This document shows positions 10,994 through 31,329 of a stretch of DNA of 64,000 bases, in pieces. Source of the DNA: Candidatus Eiseniibacteriota bacterium (GTDB taxonomy: Bacteria; Arandabacterota; Arandabacteria; Arandabacterales; Arandabacteraceae); contig JBDRNT010000094.1 of assembly GCA_043810925.1 (NCBI GenBank), positions 4,805-68,804 on the forward strand, given 5' to 3'. Positions within the stretch are counted from its first letter, which is position 1. Every line of letters starts with the position of its first letter. The translations under genes were made by a program, and so were the position numbers. The notes under the pieces were generated by a model. It made no database searches, was not told where the DNA came from, and was given only the letters and a program-made list of their open reading frames with translations.

Positions 10994-11081
10994 TGTGGAG
11001 GGGGGAATGTGGTTGAAACAGGCGGAGATTCGGTGTATAATGGGACGCGTTGGAATGTGTTCAGCCACAGGAGGTGTCAAT

Positions 11082-12497
11082 ATGAAGCGAGTGCTACTGA
11101 TTGGTTTGGTCTGTTGTATGTTCCCCGTGGCAGCATACGCGACCCCCTATGTCACGCCCGAAGAACTCATGAGTATGGAGTCGCATGAAGATGTTTTCAC
11201 CCTCAGGGCGGGTGTCCCGGGTCCACGCCCGTTTGACTACGAGTACGATCCGCTCGCCAGGCTTCTACTGGGGGCCGACTTCATCGTGACCATGCAGGTC
11301 AGTGACACTCTGCTCATGACCTATGGCGGGATAAGGGAAGGCGAGCACATGCTGGAGGTGATCCAGACCGACAACACGAGCGAGTCGATATGGATCTGGT
11401 CCCGCTGTTACAGCAGAAGCGGTCTGGATGCCTACCACGACAACATCGACGCCGCCTGGGAGTACTGTATGAATAACCCGGCATATGGTGAAGAGGGAGG
11501 AGACGACCGCGTGACGGGCTACTACCGTGTCTATAACTGCGGGTGGGCCCTGCGTGCGGAGATGGAATACCGGCGGGTATACGGCGATGCGACCTACTCG
11601 GCTTACGCCGATTCGTGCGCTTCTTATCTGTGTCATCATCCGATGTACCTCTTTTTCCCCGTGGGTGCGCCTAAGAGGCTCAACGGAATGATAATGGGTT
11701 GGGCGGTAGGGAACCTCTATGACTACGGTGTCGACGTCGGGAGCACGACCTACATGACCAAAGCGGTTGACTATGCGGACTCGGTCAAGGCCTGGGCTGA
11801 GACCAACCCGAACAAGTTCCACTGGCAGGAATGGGCCATGGAGGGTGGGGCTGTGATGTGGGGCGTGGTTAACTCCTATTTCAAAGACGATCCGACGGGA
11901 GTTGAAACCTGGGTCGATACGTACGCACCGTATCTCGATACGGAAGTCGATTCGTCACAGTACCAGAATGCCTGGCGGGGCTGGGCCGCGCTCGGTCAGA
12001 TCACGGCGGCCGAGGTTCTGGGGAGCGGAGTCTACTACGACTATTTCAAGCACCTTGCGGACACGCTCGTGCTCAATGACGGTGACCTGGACGGCGGGAT
12101 CCCCGTCACCGATCCCGAACCCGATGATCAGGACCAGTCCTGGGTTACGAACTACCTCGGCTTTATGTGTATGGACAAGCTGCTTGAGAATGCGGGTATA
12201 GCATCGCGCCAAACCCGGGACGAAGCCGCACTCGACGTATCCGCGGGGCCGATGCCATCGGGCGAGCTGCCCAGTCTGATGTTCAGGCTGGCGGAGCCCT
12301 CACGGGTATCGATCACGGTCTATGATGTGACCGGACGGAGTATCTCAAGCAGGGATGCCGGAATCCTCAGTCAGGGATTCCACTCAATAGCCTTAAACGA
12401 GGGACTTGCCGGCGGTGAGGTCTCTCCGGGGATCTACTTCTATACACTGCGCTACGGGACAGGACTTGCCAGCGGTAAGGTTGTTGTGCTAAAGTAG
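11082..12497 (+). CDS. Secreted protein with a C-terminal T9SS sorting domain. The N-terminal domain is unassigned and may be a glycosidase-like fold.
   Basis: GGAGGTG RBS. Signal peptide MKRVLLIGLVCCMFPVAAYA. C-terminus ...ITVYDVTGR...GIYFYTLRYG...GKVVVLK matches the T9SS CTD pattern. Confidence 0.7.
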   Translation: MKRVLLIGLVCCMFPVAAYATPYVTPEELMSMESHEDVFTLRAGVPGPRPFDYEYDPLARLLLGADFIVTMQVSDTLLMTYGGIREGEHMLEVIQTDNTSESIWIWSRCYSRSGLDAYHDNIDAAWEYCMNNPAYGEEGGDDRVTGYYRVYNCGWALRAEMEYRRVYGDATYSAYADSCASYLCHHPMYLFFPVGAPKRLNGMIMGWAVGNLYDYGVDVGSTTYMTKAVDYADSVKAWAETNPNKFHWQEWAMEGGAVMWGVVNSYFKDDPTGVETWVDTYAPYLDTEVDSSQYQNAWRGWAALGQITAAEVLGSGVYYDYFKHLADTLVLNDGDLDGGIPVTDPEPDDQDQSWVTNYLGFMCMDKLLENAGIASRQTRDEAALDVSAGPMPSGELPSLMFRLAEPSRVSITVYDVTGRSISSRDAGILSQGFHSIALNEGLAGGEVSPGIYFYTLRYGTGLASGKVVVLK

Positions 12498-12716: not shown

Positions 12717-13205
12717 ATGCTGAACGACTTCGTGTTGCCCGGGGCCCCGCTCGAAGTCCCGCTTGCCCGGGACATCATCCCGGTTGTCCGCACGAGAATC
12801 GAAAGGGCCAGGCAAGAGGGAATCCCGGTGATCTACCTGTGTGATGCGCACGCGGAGGATGACAGGGAATTCAAGATCTGGCCGAGACACGCCGTTGGCG
12901 GGACGGAGGGAAGCAGGGTGATCAGAGAGCTCGCTCCGGGCCGGGGTGACATAGTGCTTGCCAAAACCACGTATTCAGCTTTTTATAAGACACAGCTTGA
13001 GGATACTCTTAAGCGAATGAAGATAGAGAGGCTGACAATAGTCGGCATTGTTACCAATATATGCATCTTCTTCACCGCCGCAGATGCCGTGATGCGAGGA
13101 TACGATGTGGAGGTCCCGCGGGACGGTGTCGCGGCCCTGAGTCCGGACGAAAACGAGTTCGCACTCGACCAGATGGCCGATGTTCTCAAGGTGAGGCTCA
13201 CATGA
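12717..13205 (+). CDS. pncA: Nicotinamidase / isochorismatase-family hydrolase (PncA-like). Annotated start is probably too short.
   Basis: The cysteine-hydrolase core (LCDAHAED, VTNICI) is present. It is coupled to pncB by an ATGA overlap. The conserved N-terminal ALLVVDM lies upstream of the first ATG. Confidence 0.7.
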   Translation: MLNDFVLPGAPLEVPLARDIIPVVRTRIERARQEGIPVIYLCDAHAEDDREFKIWPRHAVGGTEGSRVIRELAPGRGDIVLAKTTYSAFYKTQLEDTLKRMKIERLTIVGIVTNICIFFTAADAVMRGYDVEVPRDGVAALSPDENEFALDQMADVLKVRLT

Positions 13206-14380
13206 AAAAACGGTCTTTTCACATCGCAAGCGAGCGGGACATACGGCTCGGGCGTACGACAGACGTCTATTTCGACAGGACGGTCGAGATACTCAAGCGC
13301 TCGAAATCCTCCAGCCGGGTCAAGGCGGAGTTTACTGCGAAGAGCCTGCCTCCCGACTACGCGTGGGCTATCATGGCCGGTCTCGAGGAATGCCTGAGCC
13401 TCCTCGAAGGGCTCGATATCGATCTCAGGGCGGTCGATGAGGGTACCGTCATAAGGCCCGACGAACCTGTGATGACGATAGAAGGCAACTACATCGATTT
13501 CGGAGCTCTCGAGACCCCGCTCCTCGGTTTTCTGTGCCAGGCTTCGGGTGTTGCCACGAAGGCGGCACGGCTGAGGATCGCAGCGGGTGAGCATACGCTC
13601 ATAAGTTTCGGCGCCAGGCGTATGCATCCGGCCGTGTCACCTATGATCGAACGGAATGCTTTTGTCGGCGGATGTGACGGCGTCGCAACCGTCAAGGCGG
13701 GTGAGATGCTGGGGATCGAACCGTCGGGTACGATGCCCCATGCGCTGGTCATACTGAGTGGCGGGATCGATGAAGCCCTGGCCGGGTTCGACAAGTACAT
13801 GCCCAAAGACATCAAGCGTATCGCTCTCGTCGACACTTTCGGGGATGAGAAGTTCGAAGCACTGGCGGCATGCGATACGCTCGGGCGTGGGCTCTACGGT
13901 GTCAGGCTGGATACGCCACGCTCGAGACGGGGTGACATGTACGAAATCGTCAGGGAACTGAGGTGGGAGCTCGATCTTCGGGGCTACTCCCATGTCAGGA
14001 TTCTCGTGAGCGGTGGATTGGACGAAGCAGAGATCGAGGATCTCGGTGAGGTGGTCGACGGTTTCGGTGTCGGCACTTGTTTGAGCAATGCGCGTGTGAT
14101 TGACTACGCGATGGACATAGTTGAAGTTGACGGTGAGTCCCGTGCCAAGAGAGGCAAGATGAGCGGTGAGAAAAAGCTCCTGAGGTGCGCCGGATGTCAC
14201 AGTGATTTTGTTGTACCGGCCAGGAGCCGCGCACGCGTAAGATGCGAATGCGGGGGTAAGGTCGAGAACCTGAGCCGCGACTTTATCAAAGGCGGCCGGA
14301 TCACGAGGAGACTGCCGGCACCCAAGGACTTAAGAAAGCGCGTGCTCAAGAGCCTGAGTTGGATTGATGGGAGGATGTAG
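13202..14380 (+). CDS. pncB: Nicotinate phosphoribosyltransferase (archaeal-type, with C-terminal zinc knuckle).
   Basis: 392 aa NAPRTase family protein with a C-terminal CxxC...CxC region. ATGA overlap with pncA. Confidence 0.85.
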   Translation: MKKRSFHIASERDIRLGRTTDVYFDRTVEILKRSKSSSRVKAEFTAKSLPPDYAWAIMAGLEECLSLLEGLDIDLRAVDEGTVIRPDEPVMTIEGNYIDFGALETPLLGFLCQASGVATKAARLRIAAGEHTLISFGARRMHPAVSPMIERNAFVGGCDGVATVKAGEMLGIEPSGTMPHALVILSGGIDEALAGFDKYMPKDIKRIALVDTFGDEKFEALAACDTLGRGLYGVRLDTPRSRRGDMYEIVRELRWELDLRGYSHVRILVSGGLDEAEIEDLGEVVDGFGVGTCLSNARVIDYAMDIVEVDGESRAKRGKMSGEKKLLRCAGCHSDFVVPARSRARVRCECGGKVENLSRDFIKGGRITRRLPAPKDLRKRVLKSLSWIDGRM

Positions 14381-15396
14381 TGTCCATTCTGAGACAGGAT
14401 CTTGCGACCAGAACCTGGAGCATTATCGCCAAGGAGCGCGGCAAGCGCCCCGACGATTTCGCCAGGAAGAAAGCGGATGCAAAGCCCAAGACGTCACATG
14501 ATGAGAAATGCCCGTTTTGCCGCGGCAACGAGCATAAGACGCCCGAGGCGGTGTTCTCACTTCCCGCAACCGGAGCTGGGAATGATAAGGACTGGGCCCT
14601 TCGGGTGGTGCCGAACAAGTTTTCGGCCTTGGCTCCACCGGAGCCCGGGTCGGACCCCGGAAGGACGAAAACAGGCATCTATCTTGAGATGTGCGGTTGC
14701 GGTGCACATGAGGTAGTGATCGAGGTACCCGACCATTCCAAGACGATTGCAACCATGAGCGACGAGGAGGTTGCAAGGATCGTCCACACGTATAGAGAGA
14801 GATTTCTCGAGCTGGACCGGTCCGACTGGAACCAGTTGATCATAGTTTTCAGAAACCAGGGCGAAGAGGCGGGCACGTCGCTTGAACATCCGCATTCCCA
14901 GATAATCGGCACCCCGATAGTTCCCCAGGAGATCAGGCGCAGGCTAGAGGAGGCCCAGAGGTATTACGATGACCATGGCACATGTGTCTACTGTGACATA
15001 CTCCACCATGAGTTGGCCGAAAAGACACGGCTGGTCTGTTCCAACGCAGGGTTCGTTGCCCTTTGTCCTTTCGCGTCCACGGTACCCTATGAGATGTGGA
15101 TCCTGCCACGACGACATGCGTCATCGTTCGGGGTCCTGACCGAGGAGGGCGCTGATCTGCTCGCCAAACTGCTTAGAGAGACTCTCTTGAGATTGCACCG
15201 CCTGCTCGGCAATCCCGATTACAACTACGTTGTGCGGTCCGCCCCCCACTACTCTGCCGGCGAGCCGCACTTCCACTGGTATGTCGAGGTCCTGCCCAGA
15301 CTTTCCACGCGCGCCGGTTTTGAGATCGGCAGCGGCATGAACATAAACATAGTCGCCCCTGAAGATGCTGCCGCTCAGCTCAGGAAGGCGCTCTGA
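14380..15396 (+). CDS. GalT-family (HIT-like) nucleotidyltransferase.
   Basis: GTG start. The CPFCRGNE zinc motif and the HPHSQ active-site motif of galactose-1-phosphate uridylyltransferase family are both present. Confidence 0.75.
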   Translation: MSILRQDLATRTWSIIAKERGKRPDDFARKKADAKPKTSHDEKCPFCRGNEHKTPEAVFSLPATGAGNDKDWALRVVPNKFSALAPPEPGSDPGRTKTGIYLEMCGCGAHEVVIEVPDHSKTIATMSDEEVARIVHTYRERFLELDRSDWNQLIIVFRNQGEEAGTSLEHPHSQIIGTPIVPQEIRRRLEEAQRYYDDHGTCVYCDILHHELAEKTRLVCSNAGFVALCPFASTVPYEMWILPRRHASSFGVLTEEGADLLAKLLRETLLRLHRLLGNPDYNYVVRSAPHYSAGEPHFHWYVEVLPRLSTRAGFEIGSGMNINIVAPEDAAAQLRKAL

Positions 15397-15397
15397 G

Positions 15398-16060
15398 ATG
15401 AAACAGGGAAACCTGGAGGCGAAGCGGAGCCAGATGGTGGAGCAACAGATACTGTCACGTGGTGTCCAGGACCGGCTCGTGCTCGAAGCCATGAGAAAGG
15501 TCCCCAGGCATCTGTTTGTGCCGAGCGAACGAGTGGATTCCGCCTATGCGGACAGGCCACTTCCGATCGGGTGCGGTCAGACTATCTCGCAACCCTACAT
15601 GGTGGCGGTGATGACGGAGGCCCTGGCCCTTGAGGGACATGAGAAGGTGCTTGAAATCGGTACCGGCTCGGGTTACCAGGCCGCGATACTTGCGGAGATT
15701 ACGGATCATGTTGTATCGCTTGAGCGACAGCCCGAGCTTGCAGATGCGGCGGCGCAGACCCTGAAGGCGCTCGGCTACGTAAATGTTGAGATCATGGTCG
15801 GTGACGGCTCGAAGGGGTATCCTGAGAGGGCTCCATATGACGGTATCCTCGTCACGGCCGGAGCACCGGACATGCCGCATGTTCTCATCGAGCAGCTTAC
15901 CGATGGAGGTAGGCTGGTCATTCCGGTCGGCAACAGCTTCCAGCAGACATTGACGAGGGTGACACGAAGGGGTGATGACTACGAGACTGAGAAGTTGGAG
16001 GGATGTGTATTTGTCCCCCTGATAGGTGAATACGGATGGAAAGAGAGCGAGGTCGAGTAG
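15398..16060 (+). CDS. pcm: Protein-L-isoaspartate O-methyltransferase.
   Basis: GQTISQPYMVA ... LEIGTGSGYQAA ... ERAPYDGILVTAG are classic PCMT motifs. Confidence 0.9.
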   Translation: MKQGNLEAKRSQMVEQQILSRGVQDRLVLEAMRKVPRHLFVPSERVDSAYADRPLPIGCGQTISQPYMVAVMTEALALEGHEKVLEIGTGSGYQAAILAEITDHVVSLERQPELADAAAQTLKALGYVNVEIMVGDGSKGYPERAPYDGILVTAGAPDMPHVLIEQLTDGGRLVIPVGNSFQQTLTRVTRRGDDYETEKLEGCVFVPLIGEYGWKESEVE

Positions 16061-16082
16061 CGGCAGGAGGAGAATTCCGCAG

Positions 16083-17198
16083 ATGATAAATCGCAAGCAG
16101 ATAATCGACTTACTTCACTTCAGATCGGGCTCGCATCCCGTGCTGAGCTTCTACATGGGGATCGGTGTTTACAAGGCGCAGCGCAAGGCCTACGAGATCG
16201 AGGCGAAGGACATAATGAAGAAGGCGATAACCGAGGCCGGTATCACGGGGGAGGCCCGGAAACATGTGGAGGAGGATGTTCACAGGATCCAGAATTTTCT
16301 CACGATGGATTTCAAGGGACGGGCGAAGGGGCTTGCGATATTCGCCTCAAAGCCTGCCGGGCTCTGGCAGGTCTTCAGGCTTCCTGTGACGGTTCCGGAC
16401 AGATGCGTCGTCGACCAGATGCCTTTTGTGCTCCCTGTTCTTAAGATAGTCGACGAGGGACGACGTTACTGTGTTGTTGTTGTCGATAAGGAAAAGGCAA
16501 GATTGTTCACGGTCTATCTTGGAGAGATACTGGAGAGAACGGACATACTCGATGATGTGCCCGGGTGGCACAAGCAGGGGGGGATGGCCCAGGCGAGGTT
16601 CCAGAGGCATATTGAGGATCATGTCAACAGACACCTCAAGCACGTGGCGGATACCATGTTCCGATTCCACAAGGCCGAAGGATTCGGTCACGTGATCATA
16701 GGGGGCTCTCAGGAAGTGCGAACAAGGCTCAACCGGGTTCTTCACTCGTACCTCCAGAGCATAGTGGTCGGTCACATATCCACCGATGTGACATCCAACA
16801 TAAACGAAATCAAAGCCGCTGCAAAGAAGATCGAGCGGGAGACCGAGGAGCGAAAGGCCAGGGAGATAGCAGAAAGACTGCTTGCCCGGTCGGGCCCGGG
16901 TGATATGACGGTGACAGGGCTTAAGAACACTGTTGCCGCGCTCCAGGAGGGACGGGTTCATACGCTTGTCCTGGTAGATAACCACGAGATCGGTGGCTGC
17001 CTGTGCGCTGACTGCGGCAGTGTTGAGGTGATGGGTGCCGGGGAGTGCGTGTTTTGTGAAAAGAAACTTAGCAAGATCGGGGATGTCTCAGAACACCTTG
17101 CAGTGCTGGCCGTTGAACACGATGCAGAGGTGAATTACGTACAGCCCAAGTCCGGCCTTGAAGAGGTTGACGGTGTCGGTGCTATCTTGAGATGGTAA
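16083..17198 (+). CDS. Bacterial eRF1/Pelota-like (baeRF-type) protein with a variant GGQ loop and a C-terminal Cys4 zinc ribbon.
   Basis: AGGAGGA RBS before the ATG at 16083. WHKQGGMAQARFQRHIEDHVNRHLKHV aligns to the eRF1 M-domain [26 protein letters not shown]. The C-terminus contains CLCADCG...CVFCEKK. Confidence 0.6.
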   Translation: MINRKQIIDLLHFRSGSHPVLSFYMGIGVYKAQRKAYEIEAKDIMKKAITEAGITGEARKHVEEDVHRIQNFLTMDFKGRAKGLAIFASKPAGLWQVFRLPVTVPDRCVVDQMPFVLPVLKIVDEGRRYCVVVVDKEKARLFTVYLGEILERTDILDDVPGWHKQGGMAQARFQRHIEDHVNRHLKHVADTMFRFHKAEGFGHVIIGGSQEVRTRLNRVLHSYLQSIVVGHISTDVTSNINEIKAAAKKIERETEERKAREIAERLLARSGPGDMTVTGLKNTVAALQEGRVHTLVLVDNHEIGGCLCADCGSVEVMGAGECVFCEKKLSKIGDVSEHLAVLAVEHDAEVNYVQPKSGLEEVDGVGAILRW

Positions 17199-17256: not shown

Positions 17257-17946
17257 ATGGGACTCATCCACATGACAGGTATTGTCAAAGAGTATGAGAT
17301 GGGCGAAGCAATGGTCCATGCACTGCGGGGGATAGAACTTGAAGTCAAGAGTGGTGAGTTCCTGGCCATCGTCGGACCATCGGGTTCGGGCAAGTCCACA
17401 CTGATGAATCTCATCGGATGCCTTGACAGGCCTACCTCGGGCGAGTATTACCCCGACGGCCGCAAGGTTGACGATCTGAGTGACGACGAACTCGCGCGCA
17501 TCAGGAACAAGAGCATAGGTTTTGTTTTCCAGACATTCAATCTTCTTCCGAGGACGAACTGTCTTCATAACGTGGAGCTGCCGCTGCTGTACTCAAATGT
17601 CGGCAGGAAGGACAGGGAGAGGACGGCCCTTGAGATCCTTGAGCGGGTCGGGCTTAAAGACCGAGTGTATCACAATCCCAACGAGCTCTCAGGCGGAGAG
17701 AGACAGCGGGTGGCAATCGCCAGAGCGCTTGTCAACGATCCCACAATCGTTCTTGCCGACGAGCCCACCGGTAATCTCGACAGCAAGACCGGGTCTGAGA
17801 TCATGGCCATATTTACGGAGCTGAATAAAGAGGGCAAGACGATCGTGCTTGTCACACACGAGAAGTACATCGCGGACTATTCGGCAAGAGTGATCTACCT
17901 CAGGGACGGCAGGGTGGTGAAGGAGGATGCCGAAGTCCTGAGGTGA
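17257..17946 (+). CDS. ABC transporter ATP-binding protein (LolD/MacB/FtsE-like). No adjacent permease.
   Basis: Walker A GPSGSGKST, signature LSGGERQRVAIARAL and Walker B IVLADEPTGNLD. A GGAGG RBS is present. Confidence 0.85.
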   Translation: MGLIHMTGIVKEYEMGEAMVHALRGIELEVKSGEFLAIVGPSGSGKSTLMNLIGCLDRPTSGEYYPDGRKVDDLSDDELARIRNKSIGFVFQTFNLLPRTNCLHNVELPLLYSNVGRKDRERTALEILERVGLKDRVYHNPNELSGGERQRVAIARALVNDPTIVLADEPTGNLDSKTGSEIMAIFTELNKEGKTIVLVTHEKYIADYSARVIYLRDGRVVKEDAEVLR

Positions 17947-21491: not shown

Positions 21492-21577
21492 GGAGGGATG
21501 GCCGAGCGGTCGAAGGCGGCGGTCTTGAAAACCGTTGACCGAAAGGTCCGTGGGTTCGAATCCTACTCCCTCCGCCA
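21492..21577 (+). tRNA. tRNA-Ser (anticodon TGA).
   Basis: Cloverleaf with acceptor GGAGGGA/TCCCTCC, anticodon loop CTTGAAA, a long variable arm and an encoded CCA. Confidence 0.85.
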
Positions 21578-21599
21578 TCTGAGTTTCCGGAGGAATCGG

Positions 21600-21695
<96 letters not shown>

Positions 21696-21729
21696 GACAA
21701 GGTAATGGAGGAAGATAGGCTTGGAGAAT

Positions 21730-21803
21730 GCGCCTGTAGCTCAATTGGATAGAGCGCGTGGCTACGGACCACGAGGCTGCGGGTTCAAATCCTGCCAGGC
21801 GCG
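21730..21803 (+). tRNA. tRNA-Arg (anticodon ACG).
   Basis: Acceptor GCGCCTG/CAGGCGC, anticodon loop CTACGGA, a short variable loop and no encoded CCA. Confidence 0.85.
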
Positions 21804-21836
21804 CTCCTTACACTAAGTGATGTGGGGGGTAAGAAG

Positions 21837-22715
21837 ATGAGAACTGCCGTCGTGACAGTAACTGCCGTATTGATCCTGCTGGCCGTGGTGCAGGTGGGCC
21901 CCGAGGCGAGAACGTTGAAGGTGCCGGAAGACTTCAAGGGTGTACAGGAGGCGGTCGGTGAGGCAACGTACGGTGACACAATACTGGTGTCCCCGGGGAC
22001 TTACAAGGTCCAGGCCAAACTGAGGAGCGGTGTCAAGGTCCTCTCAACAGACGGTCCTGACTCGACCGTTTTGTGGAACAGACGCTGGCATATCCTGGAG
22101 CTGATCGATTGCGATCTCGAAACCGAGATTTCGGGCTTCACCTTCGAGGGCAAAGGCTGCAACACTTGTCTGCCGTGTACTACAGGGGCTCCGGCGATCA
22201 CCGGCAACGTGATCAAGAACTCCTGGGACGGCATCAATCTGCTTAACTGCAATGCTCTTGTCTCAGGCAACACCATAACCGGCTGTAACCGGGGTGTTTA
22301 CCTTGAATACAGCGACCCGGAGCTGATAGAGAACACCTTCACGCGAAATGGTGACGCGGTCTCGATGGTCGGCGGTGCCCCCGTGATCGCCAGATGCACG
22401 TTCGAGCATAACGGCAGAGCATTTCTTATCTTCGGGCACTCCTATCCCACAATCGGAGGCTCGCTGACAACGGCAAACAACATCCTTACAAACGGTTTCA
22501 TGGTTTACAATGCAGGTCTACGCATAGACGGTACGTTGTATACAGATGAAAAAGAAGTAGCTGTGGCGACTCATAACTACTGGGGAAGCGATTGCCCGGA
22601 CGGCAAGCGGAACCGGGGAGAGGTCGCTTTCACTCCGTGGACCAACGCGGCGCATGACTCGGTGTTTTACGATTGTCCGGAGGCGCCGATCATGGAAGAG
22701 GACACATCTGAGTGA
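21837..22715 (+). CDS. Secreted right-handed parallel beta-helix repeat protein.
   Basis: Signal peptide MRTAVVTVTAVLILLAVVQVG. Repeated GN.I..N / NGI.L.NC beta-helix turns. Confidence 0.6.
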   Translation: MRTAVVTVTAVLILLAVVQVGPEARTLKVPEDFKGVQEAVGEATYGDTILVSPGTYKVQAKLRSGVKVLSTDGPDSTVLWNRRWHILELIDCDLETEISGFTFEGKGCNTCLPCTTGAPAITGNVIKNSWDGINLLNCNALVSGNTITGCNRGVYLEYSDPELIENTFTRNGDAVSMVGGAPVIARCTFEHNGRAFLIFGHSYPTIGGSLTTANNILTNGFMVYNAGLRIDGTLYTDEKEVAVATHNYWGSDCPDGKRNRGEVAFTPWTNAAHDSVFYDCPEAPIMEEDTSE

Positions 22716-30470: not shown

Positions 30471-30560
30471 GGAGAGATGCCAGAGCGGTTGAATGGGGCG
30501 GTCTCGAAAACCGTTGGGCAGGCAACTGCCCCGGGGGTTCGAATCCCTCTCTCTCCGCCA
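30471..30560 (+). tRNA. tRNA-Ser (anticodon CGA).
   Basis: Acceptor GGAGAGA, anticodon loop CTCGAAA, a long variable arm and an encoded CCA. It starts 6 nt after the tadA stop. Confidence 0.85.
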
Positions 30561-30652
30561 TCCCCCAAAAATCCCTCGGGGTCAGGTCTTGAAATTGAGC
30601 GTCGGGTCTCCATGCCCGGCGAAGAAGTAAGATCGTGAATAATCACATGGTG

Positions 30653-30741
30653 GAGAGATGCGAGAGCGGCTTAATCGGCGTGACTGGAAATCACGTGGAC
30701 GGGCAACCGTCCCGAGGGTTCGAATCCCTCTCTCTCCGCCA
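30653..30741 (+). tRNA. tRNA-Ser (anticodon GGA).
   Basis: Acceptor GGAGAGA, anticodon loop CTGGAAA, a long variable arm and an encoded CCA. Confidence 0.85.
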
Positions 30742-30767
30742 CTAAGAAACCAAATGCAGAAATGCAG

Positions 30768-30815
30768 GGGGTCAGAGCTAGAAAGTTACACCTGTTGGGG
30801 TCAGAGCTAAAAAGT
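30768..30815. repeat. Two direct copies of GGGGTCAGAGCTA(G/A)AAAGTT, the same family as the 10885 palindrome.
   Basis: The copies are at 30768-30787 and 30796-30815, in intergenic DNA just downstream of tRNA-Ser(GGA). Confidence 0.6.
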
Positions 30816-30891
30816 TGCGTGGCCTGCAGATGGATCATTGCCCTCCGGGAATGGTCCGGATGATGTCGACAACGGGTGCTGAGGAGGCAAG

Positions 30892-31263
30892 TTGAGATCG
30901 GTAAGGATCAAGATCGGTGAGATCACACTGGAGGCTGAGCTCGGACAGTCAAAAACCGCTCAGCTGGTGTGGGCCGCGTTGCCGTTTGCCGGAAACGCGC
31001 AGATGTGGGGAGATGAGATCTACTTCAGAGTCCCTGTTGCGGCCGAACTCGAGAATCCCAGGAGGGTAGTCGAAATTGGAGACATCGGGTACTGGCCAAC
31101 AGGCAACGCGTTCTGTATATTCTATGGAAAGACCCCGGCAAGCAGCGGTGATGATATCGTGCCGGCAAGTCCGGTCGACGTGATCGGCCGGGTGACGTCC
31201 GATGTTTCGGTCCTTAAGGGCATCACCGATCCGGGAAGGGTGACAGTGGAAAAGGGGATGTAG
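30892..31263 (+). CDS. Small conserved hypothetical protein, possibly a cyclophilin-like fold (DUF3830-like).
   Basis: TTG start 4 nt after a GAGGAGG RBS. The 123-aa product begins IKIGEITLEAEL...TAQLVWAALP...WGDEIYF. The 3' end overlaps tRNA-Ala by 10 nt. Confidence 0.4.
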   Translation: MRSVRIKIGEITLEAELGQSKTAQLVWAALPFAGNAQMWGDEIYFRVPVAAELENPRRVVEIGDIGYWPTGNAFCIFYGKTPASSGDDIVPASPVDVIGRVTSDVSVLKGITDPGRVTVEKGM

Positions 31264-31329
31264 CTCAGTTGGGAGAGCGCTGCCTTCGCAAGGCAGAGGT
31301 CGGCGGTTCGAATCCGCTCATCTCCACCA
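31254..31329 (+). tRNA. tRNA-Ala (anticodon CGC).
   Basis: GGGGATGTAGCTCAGTTGGGAGAGCGC... with the G3:U70 alanine identity pair, anticodon loop TTCGCAA and an encoded CCA. Confidence 0.85.

What the first reader, a model, noticed from the sequence alone, without database searches (positions are those of the whole stretch)
16083..17198. Bacterial eRF1/Pelota-like protein with a GGQ-to-GGM(AQ) variant loop and a C-terminal zinc ribbon, coupled to pcm
The central region aligns residue by residue with the eRF1 M-domain catalytic loop. Ours reads HKQGGMAQARFQRHIEDHVNRHLKHV. eRF1 reads [26 protein letters not shown]. The catalytic Gln of GGQ is replaced by Met, and a Gln sits two residues later. 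Such variants (compare Vms1/VLRF1) change the chemistry of peptidyl-tRNA release. A Cys4 ribbon CLCADCG...CVFCEKK is appended. The gene is co-directional and nearly contiguous with pcm and is followed by a lone ABC ATPase. This suggests a translation or protein quality-control module of the baeRF type.
Basis: partly seen in the sequence, partly recalled or inferred. Interest (0 to 1): 0.65.

Follow-up and report, generated by a model that had tools for sequence, protein, structure and literature searches.

The report
Balon-family eRF1-like ribosome factor
This gene encodes a bacterial relative of the archaeal/eukaryotic release factor eRF1 from an already catalogued family that also holds the mycobacterial ribosome-hibernation factor Balon; it keeps the release-factor loop and a zinc ribbon but not the catalytic glutamine, and its activity has never been tested.

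Summary
Window 16083-17198 (+) encodes a 371-aa, three-domain aeRF1-superfamily protein. Its loop VPGWHKQGG-M-AQARFQRH aligns column for column with the aRF1/eRF1 GGQ loop, and a Cys4 zinc ribbon lies in the C domain.

It is not new. It belongs to Pfam PF18854 (baeRF_family10). Burroughs & Aravind (2019) singled this family out for a conserved loop Gln. The validated Balon Msmeg1130 scores in the same Pfam family and is the best sequence and structure match (TM 0.79).

The Met is incidental. Among 147 representatives no more than 50% identical to each other, that position is Trp in 98 and never forms a canonical GGQ. The +2 Gln is present in only 60. The hallmark is GG-W plus the zinc ribbon.

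NIKS is absent, so stop-codon reading is unlikely.

pcm linkage holds in all 13 loci of the window's own Eisenbacteria-like clade and in none of 67 loci from other phyla. The ABC ATPase is the nucleotide-binding subunit of a MacAB-type exporter, not a ribosome partner.

Most likely it is a Balon-like A-site-occupying stress factor. A catalytic peptidyl-tRNA hydrolase role through GGx[A/S]Q remains open. It is a new member of a known kind, of moderate interest.

The parts
16083..17198 (+). Gene for a 371-aa baeRF-1 family 10 (aeRF1-superfamily, Balon-related) protein, stop codon included
   Evidence: ORF. Pfam PF18854 scores 107 bits against a cut-off of 27.1. The best PDB match is Msmeg1130 Balon, E 1.3e-14. 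Foldseek TM 0.79.
16065..16072 (+). Shine-Dalgarno-like AGGAGGAG, 10 nt upstream of ATG 16083
   Evidence: Read directly from the sequence. Homologue lengths of 370-371 aa support this start.
16083..16457 (+). N domain (about residues 1-125). It has the eRF1 N-domain fold but no NIKS or YxCxxxF motif. The tip of the helical hairpin (about residues 50-58) is the least conserved part of the protein
   Evidence: AF2 secondary structure. Profile alignment to aRF1 4af1 places NIKS on a variable segment. Mean conservation for residues 46-60 is 0.26, the lowest block.
16458..16796 (+). M domain (about residues 126-238), the RNase-H-like eRF1 domain 2 / baeRF_family10 core
   Evidence: Pfam PF18854 covers residues 114-250 and eRF1_2 covers residues 129-243. 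AF2 model.
16557..16613 (+). Loop and helix start, VPGWHKQGGMAQARFQRHI (residues 159-177), homologous to the aRF1/eRF1 GGQ loop. G166, G167, M168 (on the catalytic-Gln column), A169 and Q170 occupy 16578-16592
   Evidence: Gap-free alignments to eRF1 and aRF1. Column counts in 147 representatives: G166 120, G167 121, W168 98, Q170 60, R175 128, H176 119. Codons.
16797..17195 (+). C domain (about residues 239-371), the eRF1 domain 3 / Pelota-type domain, ending ...GAILRW as in Msmeg1130 Balon and aRF1
   Evidence: Alignment runs to the last residue of Msmeg1130 and of aRF1 4af1. AF2 model.
16995..17078 (+). Cys4 zinc ribbon inserted in the C domain (about residues 305-332). The ligands are C308, C311, C322 and C325 (17004-17057)
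   Evidence: CxxC...CxxC occurs in 193 of 200 relatives, and each Cys in 136-144 of 147 representatives. It aligns with the Cys-bearing insert of Halobacterium aRF1 and with the Cys-less stretch of Msmeg1130.
15365..16060 (+). pcm (protein-L-isoaspartate O-methyltransferase). The start is 15365 or 15398. It is the upstream neighbour in the same co-directional array. The linkage is confined to this lineage
   Evidence: PCMT E 1.9e-65. NCBIfam NF001453 scores 271 bits against 188. It lies immediately upstream in L001-L013 and is absent from L014-L080. The pair survives a synteny break upstream, where L011/L012 have pyruvate kinase instead of GalT.
17257..17946 (+). LolD/MacB-type ABC ATPase (single nucleotide-binding domain). 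It is the downstream neighbour and probably not functionally tied to the factor
   Evidence: NCBIfam MacB/LolD/DarD-type hits. In L003 it is flanked by a HlyD adaptor and a MacB_PCD/FtsX permease. The window holds no adaptor or permease.

Best explanation
The gene encodes a three-domain bacterial aeRF1 homologue of baeRF-1 family 10 (Pfam PF18854). This is the family that also holds the mycobacterial hibernation factor Balon (Msmeg1130).

Shown here: the fold, the family membership, homology of the loop to the GGQ loop, the conserved zinc ribbon, and the lack of NIKS.

Inferred mechanism:
1. Like Balon and aRF1, the protein docks in the ribosomal A site.
2. The N domain lies at the decoding centre without reading a stop codon.
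3. The M-domain loop and its basic helix (R172, R175, H176, H184, K186) reach the peptidyl-transferase centre.
4. A hydrophobic residue (Trp in the family, Met here) takes the place of the catalytic Gln.
5. The C domain, with its zinc ribbon, contacts EF-Tu. The ribbon is the intact form of the insert that Balons keep as a Cys-less stretch.

The most likely role is a stress or stationary-phase factor that occupies and silences the A site, as Balon does in ribosome hibernation. It is unlikely to be a stop-codon-dependent terminator.

Whether the retained GG-x-A-Q loop still hydrolyses peptidyl-tRNA is unresolved. The confidence given applies to the non-catalytic, Balon-like reading. Family identity itself is about 0.95.
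For: Family and fold:
- PF18854 scores 107 bits.
- Msmeg1130 itself scores 124.7 bits on PF18854.
- Msmeg1130 is the best PDB sequence hit: E 1.3e-14 with the single protein and 5.8e-26 full-length with the family profile.
- It is also the best structural hit: Foldseek E 1.7e-25, TM 0.79, using an AF2 model of pLDDT 83.
- NCBIfam's top hits are the three Balon equivalog models, although all fall below their cut-offs.

Against canonical catalysis:
- The canonical Gln position is never part of a GGQ in 147 diverse representatives. It is W 98, F 14, R 10.
- The Trp persists in subgroups whose first Gly is Ala (AGWYE), or whose +2 Gln is lost (GGWFALSE, GGWAA). The conserved function of the loop is therefore not classical GGQ chemistry.
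- NIKS aligns to the least conserved segment of the protein.

Context:
- Neighbours in other lineages are stress or proteostasis genes. One lineage has DnaJ-HtrA-HtrA-MerR-SDH protease-[factor]-ClpB. Actinomycetota have an ArsA ATPase with an HSP20-like domain. The window's clade has pcm.
- The Balon paper reports stress-operon contexts with Hsp20, DnaK and DnaJ (PMC10901736).
- Rv2629 and Msmeg1130 bind the A site and inhibit translation in vitro (PMC10901736).
Against: - The protein fails all three NCBIfam Balon equivalog cut-offs: 105.6 against 480, 83.6 against 320, and 66.8 against 330 bits. Structure-based alignment gives only 21-22% identity to Msmeg1130.
- Characterised Balons lack the GG loop altogether. 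This protein keeps an almost aRF1-identical VPGxHKxGG scaffold of fixed length.
- The block covering residues 166-180 is among the most conserved in the protein (0.56). Such constraint is what Burroughs & Aravind took as a sign of catalysis in family 10.
- In bacterial release factors it is the backbone amide of the Gln that catalyses hydrolysis (PMC6742477), so a GG-M or GG-W loop is not excluded as a catalyst.
- No HPF/RaiA gene was seen next to any of the roughly 90 loci examined.
- There are no experimental data for any zinc-ribbon/GGW member.
Confidence: 0.5

Rival explanations
1. It is a catalytically active, stop-codon-independent peptidyl-tRNA hydrolase (ribosome rescue factor). The GG-x-[A/S]-Q loop enters the peptidyl-transferase centre of stalled ribosomes and releases the nascent chain, using Q170 and/or the backbone as in GGQ factors and as proposed for GGxSQ VLRF-1 proteins. 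The N domain senses an empty or aberrant A site rather than a stop codon.
For: [quoted passage not shown] They also describe GGxSQ/GxuQ motifs in aVLRF-1 and acVLRF-1 (PMC6514570).
- GGx[A/S]Q is present in 174 of 200 closer relatives.
- The loop scaffold VPGxHKxGG is nearly identical to that of aRF1 and has a fixed length.
- The Gln backbone amide, not the side chain, is held to catalyse hydrolysis (PMC6742477).
- Protease and chaperone neighbours (SDH/S49 protease, HtrA, ClpB, pcm) would suit disposal of released aberrant chains.
Against: - Q170 is present in only 60 of 147 diverse representatives. It is replaced by E in 45 and by A in 14.
- Trp168 is better conserved than Q170 and survives in AGW variants. 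By analogy with Gly-to-Ala mutants of GGQ factors, recalled from general knowledge, these variants should be inactive.
- AF2 places Q170 in the first turn of the helix rather than at the loop tip, although the loop has low confidence (pLDDT 57).
- The nearest characterised relative is non-catalytic.
Confidence: 0.3
2. It is a Vms1/ANKZF1-like enzyme, as NCBI names its homologues ('Vms1/Ankzf1 family peptidyl-tRNA hydrolase'). On this reading it acts on 50S-bound peptidyl-tRNA, possibly by cutting the tRNA 3' CCA end.
For: - Pfam acVLRF1 scores 34.8 bits, above its 27.1 cut-off.
- The motif shape GGxuQ is shared with acVLRF-1 and aVLRF-1.
- NCBI applies this name to homologues P0019, P0028, P0035 and P0062.
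Against: - The acVLRF1 hit overlaps a three-fold stronger baeRF_family10 hit.
- NCBIfam acVLRF1_NCBI scores 16.5 bits against a cut-off of 125.
- acVLRF-1 proteins have lost the N (stop-codon-binding) domain (PMC6514570). This protein has all three domains, in a Balon/aRF1 arrangement.
- No Vms1 structure appears among the Foldseek matches with E <= 0.001.
Confidence: 0.05
3. pcm, the eRF1-like gene and the ABC ATPase form one dedicated translation/protein-quality-control module. The ATPase would act on the ribosome like ABCE1.
For: - The genes are tightly packed and co-directional, with 22-nt and 58-nt gaps. No terminator-like site stands out between them.
- The pcm-factor pair is kept in 13 of 13 loci of the clade, down to 58% identity. 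It survives a synteny break upstream, where pyruvate kinase replaces GalT.
Against: - None of 67 loci from other phyla has pcm or this ATPase nearby.
- The wider neighbourhood (NAPRT-GalT-...-AspK-TPR) is also syntenic within the clade, so adjacency may be simple inheritance.
- The ATPase is a single-NBD LolD/MacB type. In L003, L004 and L008 a HlyD adaptor separates it from the factor and a MacB_PCD/FtsX permease follows it.
- pcm is an ordinary PIMT equivalog.
Confidence: 0.1
4. It is a genuine stop-codon-dependent class-1 release factor of archaeal type working in a bacterium.
For: It aligns over its full length with Halobacterium aRF1 (E 1.3e-20). The NCBIfam aRF1_eRF1 model gives E 1.8e-19.
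Against: - aRF1_eRF1 scores 69.8 bits against a cut-off of 234.7.
- The NIKS and YxCxxxF positions are not conserved.
- The catalytic Gln is replaced.
- baeRF-1 proteins never displace RF1/RF2 (PMC6514570).
Confidence: 0.03

Closest known systems
Msmeg1130 (MSMEG_1130), the Mycobacterium smegmatis Balon; PDB 8v9j/8v9l
   Same: - It belongs to the same Pfam family: PF18854 gives 124.7 bits for Msmeg1130 and 107.2 for this protein.
- The two align over their full length, down to the shared C-terminal ...LRW.
- It is the best structural match, TM 0.79.
- Both have three domains and no NIKS.
   Different: - Identity is 21-22%, and the NCBIfam equivalog cut-off is missed by far (105.6 against 480).
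- Msmeg1130 has no GG loop: FGQAPQERAGQ aligns to PGWHKQGGMAQ.
- Msmeg1130 has no cysteines in the C-domain insert.
- This protein keeps the aRF1-like loop scaffold and a Cys4 zinc ribbon.
Archaeal aRF1 (Halobacterium 4af1; Aeropyrum pernix 3agk)
   Same: - The domain order is the same and the alignment is full-length (E 1.3e-20).
- The loop is almost identical: VPGKHKMGGQSQRRYER against VPGWHKQGGMAQARFQRH.
- The C domains carry a Cys-bearing insert at the same site, and the C termini (ILRY/ILRF) match.
   Different: - Here the catalytic Gln is Met (Trp in the family).
- NIKS and YxCxxxF are absent.
- The TIGR03676 score is 69.8 against a cut-off of 234.7.
- The host is a bacterium that, like all bacteria, should have RF1/RF2 (PMC6514570).
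Psychrobacter urativorans Balon (PDB 8rd8/8rdv/8rdw) and M. tuberculosis Rv2629 (8v9k)
   Same: They are aeRF1-type three-domain A-site factors. Foldseek gives E 4e-19 with TM 0.66 for Balon and E 4e-18 with TM 0.65 for Rv2629.
   Different: - Sequence similarity is marginal for P. urativorans Balon (profile E 0.0012, N domain only) and moderate for Rv2629 (9.3e-11).
- The HP motif, lasso loop and bL27 trap described for Balon (PMC10901736) could not be mapped here.
VLRF-1 clade (Vms1/ANKZF1; acVLRF-1, aVLRF-1)
   Same: The loop motif has the form GGx[S/A]Q (GxuQ), with the Gln displaced by two residues from the GGQ position (PMC6514570). Pfam acVLRF1 gives a weak hit.
   Different: The architecture differs: acVLRF-1 lacks the N domain. 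NCBIfam acVLRF1 scores 16.5 bits against a cut-off of 125. The baeRF_family10 hit is much stronger.
Pelota/Dom34
   Same: It belongs to the same superfamily and has no catalytic Gln. It is a stop-codon-independent A-site factor.
   Different: The matches are much weaker: Foldseek E 1e-9 or worse with TM 0.25-0.43, and profile E 2e-7 for the M/C part only.

Membership tests
aeRF1 superfamily (eRF1/aRF1/Pelota/Balon fold) | Three-domain N-M-C architecture with an RNase-H-like middle domain | tested here: met
   The AF2 model has pLDDT 83.2. Foldseek matches Balon, aRF1, eRF1 and Pelota over the full length. The profile aligns residues 4-372 to aRF1 residues 18-412.
Pfam PF18854 baeRF_family10 | Score above the curated gathering threshold, as the best-scoring baeRF family | tested here: met
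   107.2 bits against a cut-off of 27.1. The next best are eRF1_2 (39.1), baeRF_family2 (35.2) and acVLRF1 (34.8).
baeRF-1 family 10 as described by Burroughs & Aravind 2019 | A well-conserved Gln in the catalytic loop (GxuQ-type) | tested here: met
   The window reads GGMAQ. GGx[A/S]Q occurs in 174 of 200 closer relatives. Q170 is present in only 60 of 147 representatives no more than 50% identical to each other.
Balon (NCBIfam equivalogs NF052288 MSMEG_1130, NF052289 Rv2629, NF052287 AOC03_06830) | Score above the curated equivalog cut-off | tested here: not met
   105.6 against 480, 83.6 against 320, and 66.8 against 330 bits.
Balon | Absence of the NIKS stop-codon motif | tested here: met
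   The NIKS column block of aRF1 aligns to a variable segment, about residues 50-58. This is the lowest-conservation block, 0.26.
Balon | Absence of the GGQ motif, with the loop replaced (lasso loop) | tested here: inconclusive
   The canonical Gln is absent (M168; W in the family), but the GG and the aRF1-like loop scaffold are retained.
Balon | Beta-hairpin insertion in the C domain that contacts EF-Tu | tested here: inconclusive
   An intact Cys4 zinc ribbon occupies the stretch that aligns to a Cys-less segment of Msmeg1130. Burroughs & Aravind regard the two-strand insert as a possible degenerate ribbon. That this segment is the EF-Tu-binding hairpin is an inference.
Balon | Binds the ribosomal A site (with EF-Tu) and inhibits translation under stress | not testable with these tools
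   This needs pelleting or cryo-EM and in vitro translation assays, as in PMC10901736.
Class-1 release factor aRF1/eRF1 (TIGR03676) | Equivalog score, NIKS and YxCxxxF in the N domain, and GGQ in the M domain | tested here: not met
   69.8 bits against 234.7. NIKS and YxCxxxF are not conserved. The loop reads GGM here and GGW in the family.
VLRF-1 / Vms1-ANKZF1 (acVLRF1) | NCBIfam NF041024 cut-off, and an architecture without the N (codon-binding) domain | tested here: not met
   16.5 bits against 125. The N domain is present. Only the motif shape GGxuQ is shared.
ABCE1/ABCF-type ribosome-associated ABC ATPase (for the downstream gene) | Twin nucleotide-binding domains and no transporter partners | tested here: not met
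   It is a 229-aa single NBD whose best models are MacB, LolD and DarD. In L003 it is flanked by HlyD and MacB_PCD/FtsX.
Known anti-phage defence systems (PADLOC) | Match of the factor to any defence-system protein model | tested here: not met
   There are no PADLOC hits for the factor. pcm and the ABC ATPase give only generic domain hits.

The most novel reading that the evidence does not exclude
The zinc-ribbon/GG-[W/M]-[A/S]-Q subgroup of baeRF-1 family 10 may be a living intermediate between archaeal aRF1 and Balon that has kept catalysis. On this reading it is a bacterial, EF-Tu-delivered, stop-codon-independent peptidyl-tRNA hydrolase (or Vms1-like tRNA nuclease). An aromatic or hydrophobic residue replaces the canonical Gln, and the Gln two residues later or the backbone does the chemistry. 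In the Eisenbacteria-like lineage it would be co-expressed with pcm as part of a damaged-protein response.
Probability: 0.25. Interest if true: 0.7.

Novelty: new member of a known kind. Interest (0 to 1): 0.4.

Why it matters
The family is large. 1,981 clusters at 50% identity match the profile with E <= 1e-30, and 397 loci were confirmed in one-genome-per-species bacterial and archaeal assemblies. It is spread over at least six phyla. No zinc-ribbon/GGW member has been studied.

The family sits between archaeal release factors and the recently discovered Balon hibernation factors. It keeps the release-factor loop scaffold and the ancestral zinc ribbon, but has systematically replaced the catalytic Gln with Trp.

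A simple release assay could show whether these proteins silence ribosomes, release stalled chains, or do both. The answer would show how a terminator was turned into a hibernation factor. It would also correct current database names for the family ('peptide chain release factor subunit 1', 'Vms1/Ankzf1 family peptidyl-tRNA hydrolase').

For this window specifically, the gene is an ordinary member of the family with an incidental Trp-to-Met change.

Tried and rejected
- The search for related loci with the 36-sequence alignment failed because no conserved stretch was found. It worked with a 9-sequence alignment.
- Greedy ORF calling in high-GC loci produced a large spurious antisense 'family' (cluster 1). 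I relied instead on same-strand clusters, Pfam, and the gene calls from the look-up of encoding contigs.
- A literal search for 'baeRF1' found no paper. The substring 'baeRF' found PMC6514570.
- Shaw & Green 2007 (PMC2175178), on Gln-mutant release factors, is not held. I used PMC6514570 and PMC6742477 instead.
- The ABC ATPase as an ABCE1/ABCF-like recycling partner was rejected.
- pcm as a disguised GGQ-type glutamine methyltransferase was rejected. It passes the PIMT equivalog cut-off (271 bits against 188), and the PrmC model gives only 18 bits against 199.
- Membership of a defence system was rejected: there are no PADLOC hits for the factor.
- A family-wide conserved partner gene was sought and not found. 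Neighbours differ by phylum, and no HPF/RaiA was seen.
- I tested whether loop-degenerate family-10 proteins (P0156, P0210, P0257) are NCBIfam Balon equivalogs. They are not, at 64-78 bits against a cut-off of 480.
Full report
**1. The observation**

- The mechanical ORF is 16026-17198 on the + strand.
- The real start is most likely ATG 16083. AGGAGGAG lies 10 nt upstream, and more than 70 homologues are 370-371 aa long and begin MI[NS]RKQ.
- The product is 371 aa and ends ...GAILRW, followed by TAA at 17196-17198.
- phmmer aligns residues 159-177 (VPGWHKQGGMAQARFQRHI) without gaps to human eRF1 ([18 protein letters not shown]) and to Aeropyrum aRF1 (VPGKHKMGGQSQRRYER). A family profile aligns them to Halobacterium aRF1 (VPGKQRKGGQSAQRFARL).
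- M168 (ATG 16584-16586) therefore sits exactly on the catalytic Gln column, and Q170 follows two residues later.
- The Cys4 pattern C308-x2-C311...C322-x2-C325 is real and conserved. It occurs in 193 of 200 relatives, and each ligand occurs in 136-144 of 147 representatives.
- The ribbon is inserted in the C domain, not appended. About 45 residues follow it and align to the C termini of Balon and aRF1.
- pcm ends 22 nt upstream and a single-NBD ABC ATPase starts 58 nt downstream.

**2. What the protein is**

- Pfam gives baeRF_family10 (PF18854) at E 1.1e-30, 107 bits against a cut-off of 27.1. Weaker overlapping hits are eRF1_2, baeRF families 2/3/5/12 and acVLRF1.
- NCBIfam's best hits are the three 'ribosome hibernation factor' (Balon) equivalogs and aRF1_eRF1. 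All are full-length alignments but far below their cut-offs.
- The best solved relative by sequence is Msmeg1130, the M. smegmatis Balon. It scores E 1.3e-14 with the single protein and 5.8e-26 with a 36-sequence profile. Archaeal aRF1 follows at 1.3e-20.
- An AlphaFold2 model built on that alignment has pLDDT 83.2 and pTM 0.63, and shows the three eRF1 domains.
- Foldseek ranks ribosome-bound Msmeg1130 first (E 1.7e-25, TM 0.79). Then come aRF1, P. urativorans Balon, Rv2629, eRF1, and more distantly Pelota/Dom34.
- I reconstructed residues 10-375 of Msmeg1130 from the printed alignment. That sequence scores 124.7 bits on PF18854, so a validated Balon and this protein belong to one Pfam family.

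**3. What is known about the family**

- They noted that most families have lost the catalytic Gln and are probably non-catalytic.
- They described GGxSQ/GxuQ motifs in aVLRF-1 and acVLRF-1.
- They noted that a zinc ribbon is inserted in the Pelota domain of classical aeRF-1. Many baeRF-1 families have a two-strand insert there, which may be a degenerate ribbon.
- Helena-Bueno et al. [quoted passage not shown]
- They also showed that these proteins lack NIKS and GGQ, inhibit translation in vitro, and usually lie in stress operons.
- I found no paper that characterises a zinc-ribbon/GG-loop member.

**4. The loop across the family**

- Among 200 closer relatives (proteins plus genomic loci), the motif is GGW[A/S]Q in 164 and GGx[A/S]Q in 174. 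GGM occurs only in the window and in P0002.
- The nearest relatives read CTG (Leu, 91% identity) and then TGG (Trp) at this codon.
- A profile search of 1.84 billion cluster representatives found 1,981 with E <= 1e-30.
- In 147 full-length top hits, which are cluster representatives at 50% identity, the column counts are as follows:

| Position | Counts |
|---|---|
| G166 | 120 |
| G167 | 121 |
| 168 | W 98, F 14, R 10, L 4, Y 3; M 2 (the window and P0264) |
| 170 | Q 60, E 45, A 14 |
| R175 | 128 |
| H176 | 119 |

- None of the 147 has a canonical GGQ.
- Subgroups keep the Trp while losing the Gln (Nitrospirota PGRHKKGGWFALSE; GGWAA) or the first Gly (AGWYE).
- The family hallmark is therefore an aRF1-like loop with Trp in place of the catalytic Gln. 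The window's Met is a sporadic hydrophobic replacement. The +2 Gln is a subgroup feature that the window does have.
- An unsupported NJ tree rooted on aRF1 places a loop-degenerate clade inside the GGW[A/S]Q forms, and the ribbon decays only at that clade's tips. This fits a path from aRF1 through GGW-plus-ribbon to the Balon-like state, but the tree carries no support values.

**5. The other domains**

- The aRF1 NIKS block aligns to the tip of the N-domain helical hairpin, about residues 50-58. This is the least conserved part of the protein.
- YxCxxxF is also absent. Stop-codon reading in the aRF1 manner is therefore unlikely.
- The ribbon aligns with the Cys-bearing insert of Halobacterium aRF1 and with a Cys-less segment of Msmeg1130 of nearly the same length.
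- It is my inference that this segment is the beta-hairpin insertion that Helena-Bueno et al. report in the Balon C domain.

**6. Genomic context**

- A scan of one genome per species found 397 loci, of which 80 were fetched.
- The phyla include Eisenbacteria-like MAGs (the window's clade, 58-91% identity), Cloacimonadota, WOR-3/Stahlbacteria, Actinomycetota, Anaerolineae/Chloroflexota and Nitrospirota.
- pcm lies immediately upstream in all 13 loci of the window's clade and in none of the other 67. The ABC ATPase shows the same restriction.
- Within the clade the whole neighbourhood is syntenic. However, the pcm-factor pair survives a break upstream, where L011 and L012 have pyruvate kinase instead of GalT. 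This gives modest support for a lineage-specific link.
- In L003 the factor and the ATPase are separated by a HlyD adaptor, and a MacB_PCD/FtsX permease follows the ATPase. L004 and L008 show the same extra ~1.3-kb spacing between the two genes. The ATPase is therefore the nucleotide-binding subunit of a MacAB-type exporter. The window has no adaptor or permease anywhere in its 64 kb.
- Neighbours elsewhere differ by lineage:
  - Actinomycetota have an ArsA ATPase with an HSP20-like domain, a 79-aa ORF, the factor, a ROK protein and a luciferase-like protein.
  - One lineage has DnaJ-HtrA-HtrA-MerR-SDH protease-factor-...-ClpB.
  - Cloacimonadota have the factor followed by peptidase S49.
  - Other lineages have unrelated genes.
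- No HPF/RaiA gene was seen. The recurring theme is stress and proteostasis, as reported for Balon, but no partner is conserved family-wide.

**7. Mechanism**

- Shown: the fold, the family, homology of the loop, the ribbon, the lack of NIKS, and the context.
- Inferred: A-site binding, insertion of the loop and basic helix at the peptidyl-transferase centre, and EF-Tu contact through the C domain and ribbon.
- I favour a Balon-like, non-catalytic A-site occupant used in stress (about 0.5), for three reasons:
  - The nearest characterised relative is in the same Pfam family.
  - The conserved loop residue is Trp rather than a Gln.
  - The Trp persists where GG or Gln are lost.
- The catalytic rival (about 0.3) stays open:
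  - The aRF1 loop scaffold and the GG are tightly conserved in this subgroup.
  - GGMAQ fits the GxuQ pattern.
  - Hydrolysis by release factors is ascribed to the backbone amide at the Gln position (PMC6742477).
- Membership of the Vms1-like clade, a canonical release-factor role, and a dedicated pcm-factor-ABC module are each unlikely.

**8. Verdict**

- The gene is a new member of a known, computationally described family (PF18854), now linked to Balon.
- The 'GGQ-to-GGM' change is incidental within a GGW family. The pcm link is lineage-specific. The ABC ATPase is unrelated.
- Interest is moderate (0.4). The zinc-ribbon/GGW subgroup is large, untested, and looks like an intermediate between a terminator and a hibernation factor. 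None of this is specific to the window.

Noticed in passing
window 17257-17946; L003 7121-10328: The ABC ATPase stands alone in the window. In sister genomes (L003; L004 and L008 have the same spacing) it lies between a HlyD-family adaptor and a MacB_PCD/FtsX permease. tblastn finds no adaptor or permease relative anywhere in the 64-kb window. The window's lineage therefore seems to have lost or relocated the membrane parts of a MacAB-type exporter while keeping the ATPase at 80-94% identity.
   Followed up: partly
window 12717-15396: The genes upstream of pcm are tightly packed and co-directional. They are a PncA-like isochorismatase (12717-13205), a NAPRT/QRPTase-like gene (about 13199-14380) with a Cys-rich C-terminal tail (CAGCHSDF...CECGG), and a GalT-like uridylyltransferase (14380-15396). 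Several stops and starts overlap or abut. Between 12717 and 17946 no terminator-like site stands out above the shuffle expectation.
   Followed up: partly
window 21492-21804 and 30471-31329: There are two tRNA clusters on the + strand: Ser(TGA), Ser(GCT) and Arg(ACG); then Ser(CGA), Ser(GGA) and Ala(CGC). Four of the six tRNA genes are tRNA-Ser isoacceptors.
   Followed up: no
L083/L084 1167-10353: In one lineage (P0075) the family-10 gene sits inside what looks like a heat-shock operon: DnaJ, two HtrA-like proteases, a MerR-type regulator, an SDH/NfeD protease, the factor, three small ORFs and ClpB. In Cloacimonadota (L090) the factor is followed by an S49 (SppA-type) protease. ClpP-fold serine proteases thus lie next to the factor in two unrelated lineages.
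   Followed up: partly
L081 4541-5993; L088 4350-5928; 12 Actinomycetota loci: In Actinomycetota MAGs the factor is preceded by an ArsA-type ATPase fused to an HSP20-like domain and by a conserved small ORF of 52-126 aa. The small ORF has no Pfam hit, except PF27253 (AF_1253) in L088. The function of this trio is unknown.
   Followed up: partly
window 15398-16060 and 17257-17946: PADLOC gives partial, domain-level hits of pcm to mad2 (1e-24) and of the ABC ATPase to mad3 (1e-35), both components of the 'mads' candidate defence system. The factor itself has no hit. pcm passes its own equivalog cut-off, so I read these as generic methyltransferase and ATPase similarity.
   Followed up: partly
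window 1-64000: GC skew is positive in almost every 2-kb bin up to about 50 kb, so cumulative skew rises. It flattens at 50-54 kb and falls between 54 and 60 kb. This suggests a change of gene orientation or a replication-related switch near 50-54 kb.
   Followed up: no
window 10995-12497 and 21822-22715: A 500-aa ORF upstream has no Pfam hit. A 297-aa ORF after the tRNA cluster carries a NosD-type beta-helix repeat domain (E 1.3e-10). Both are of unknown role.
   Followed up: no
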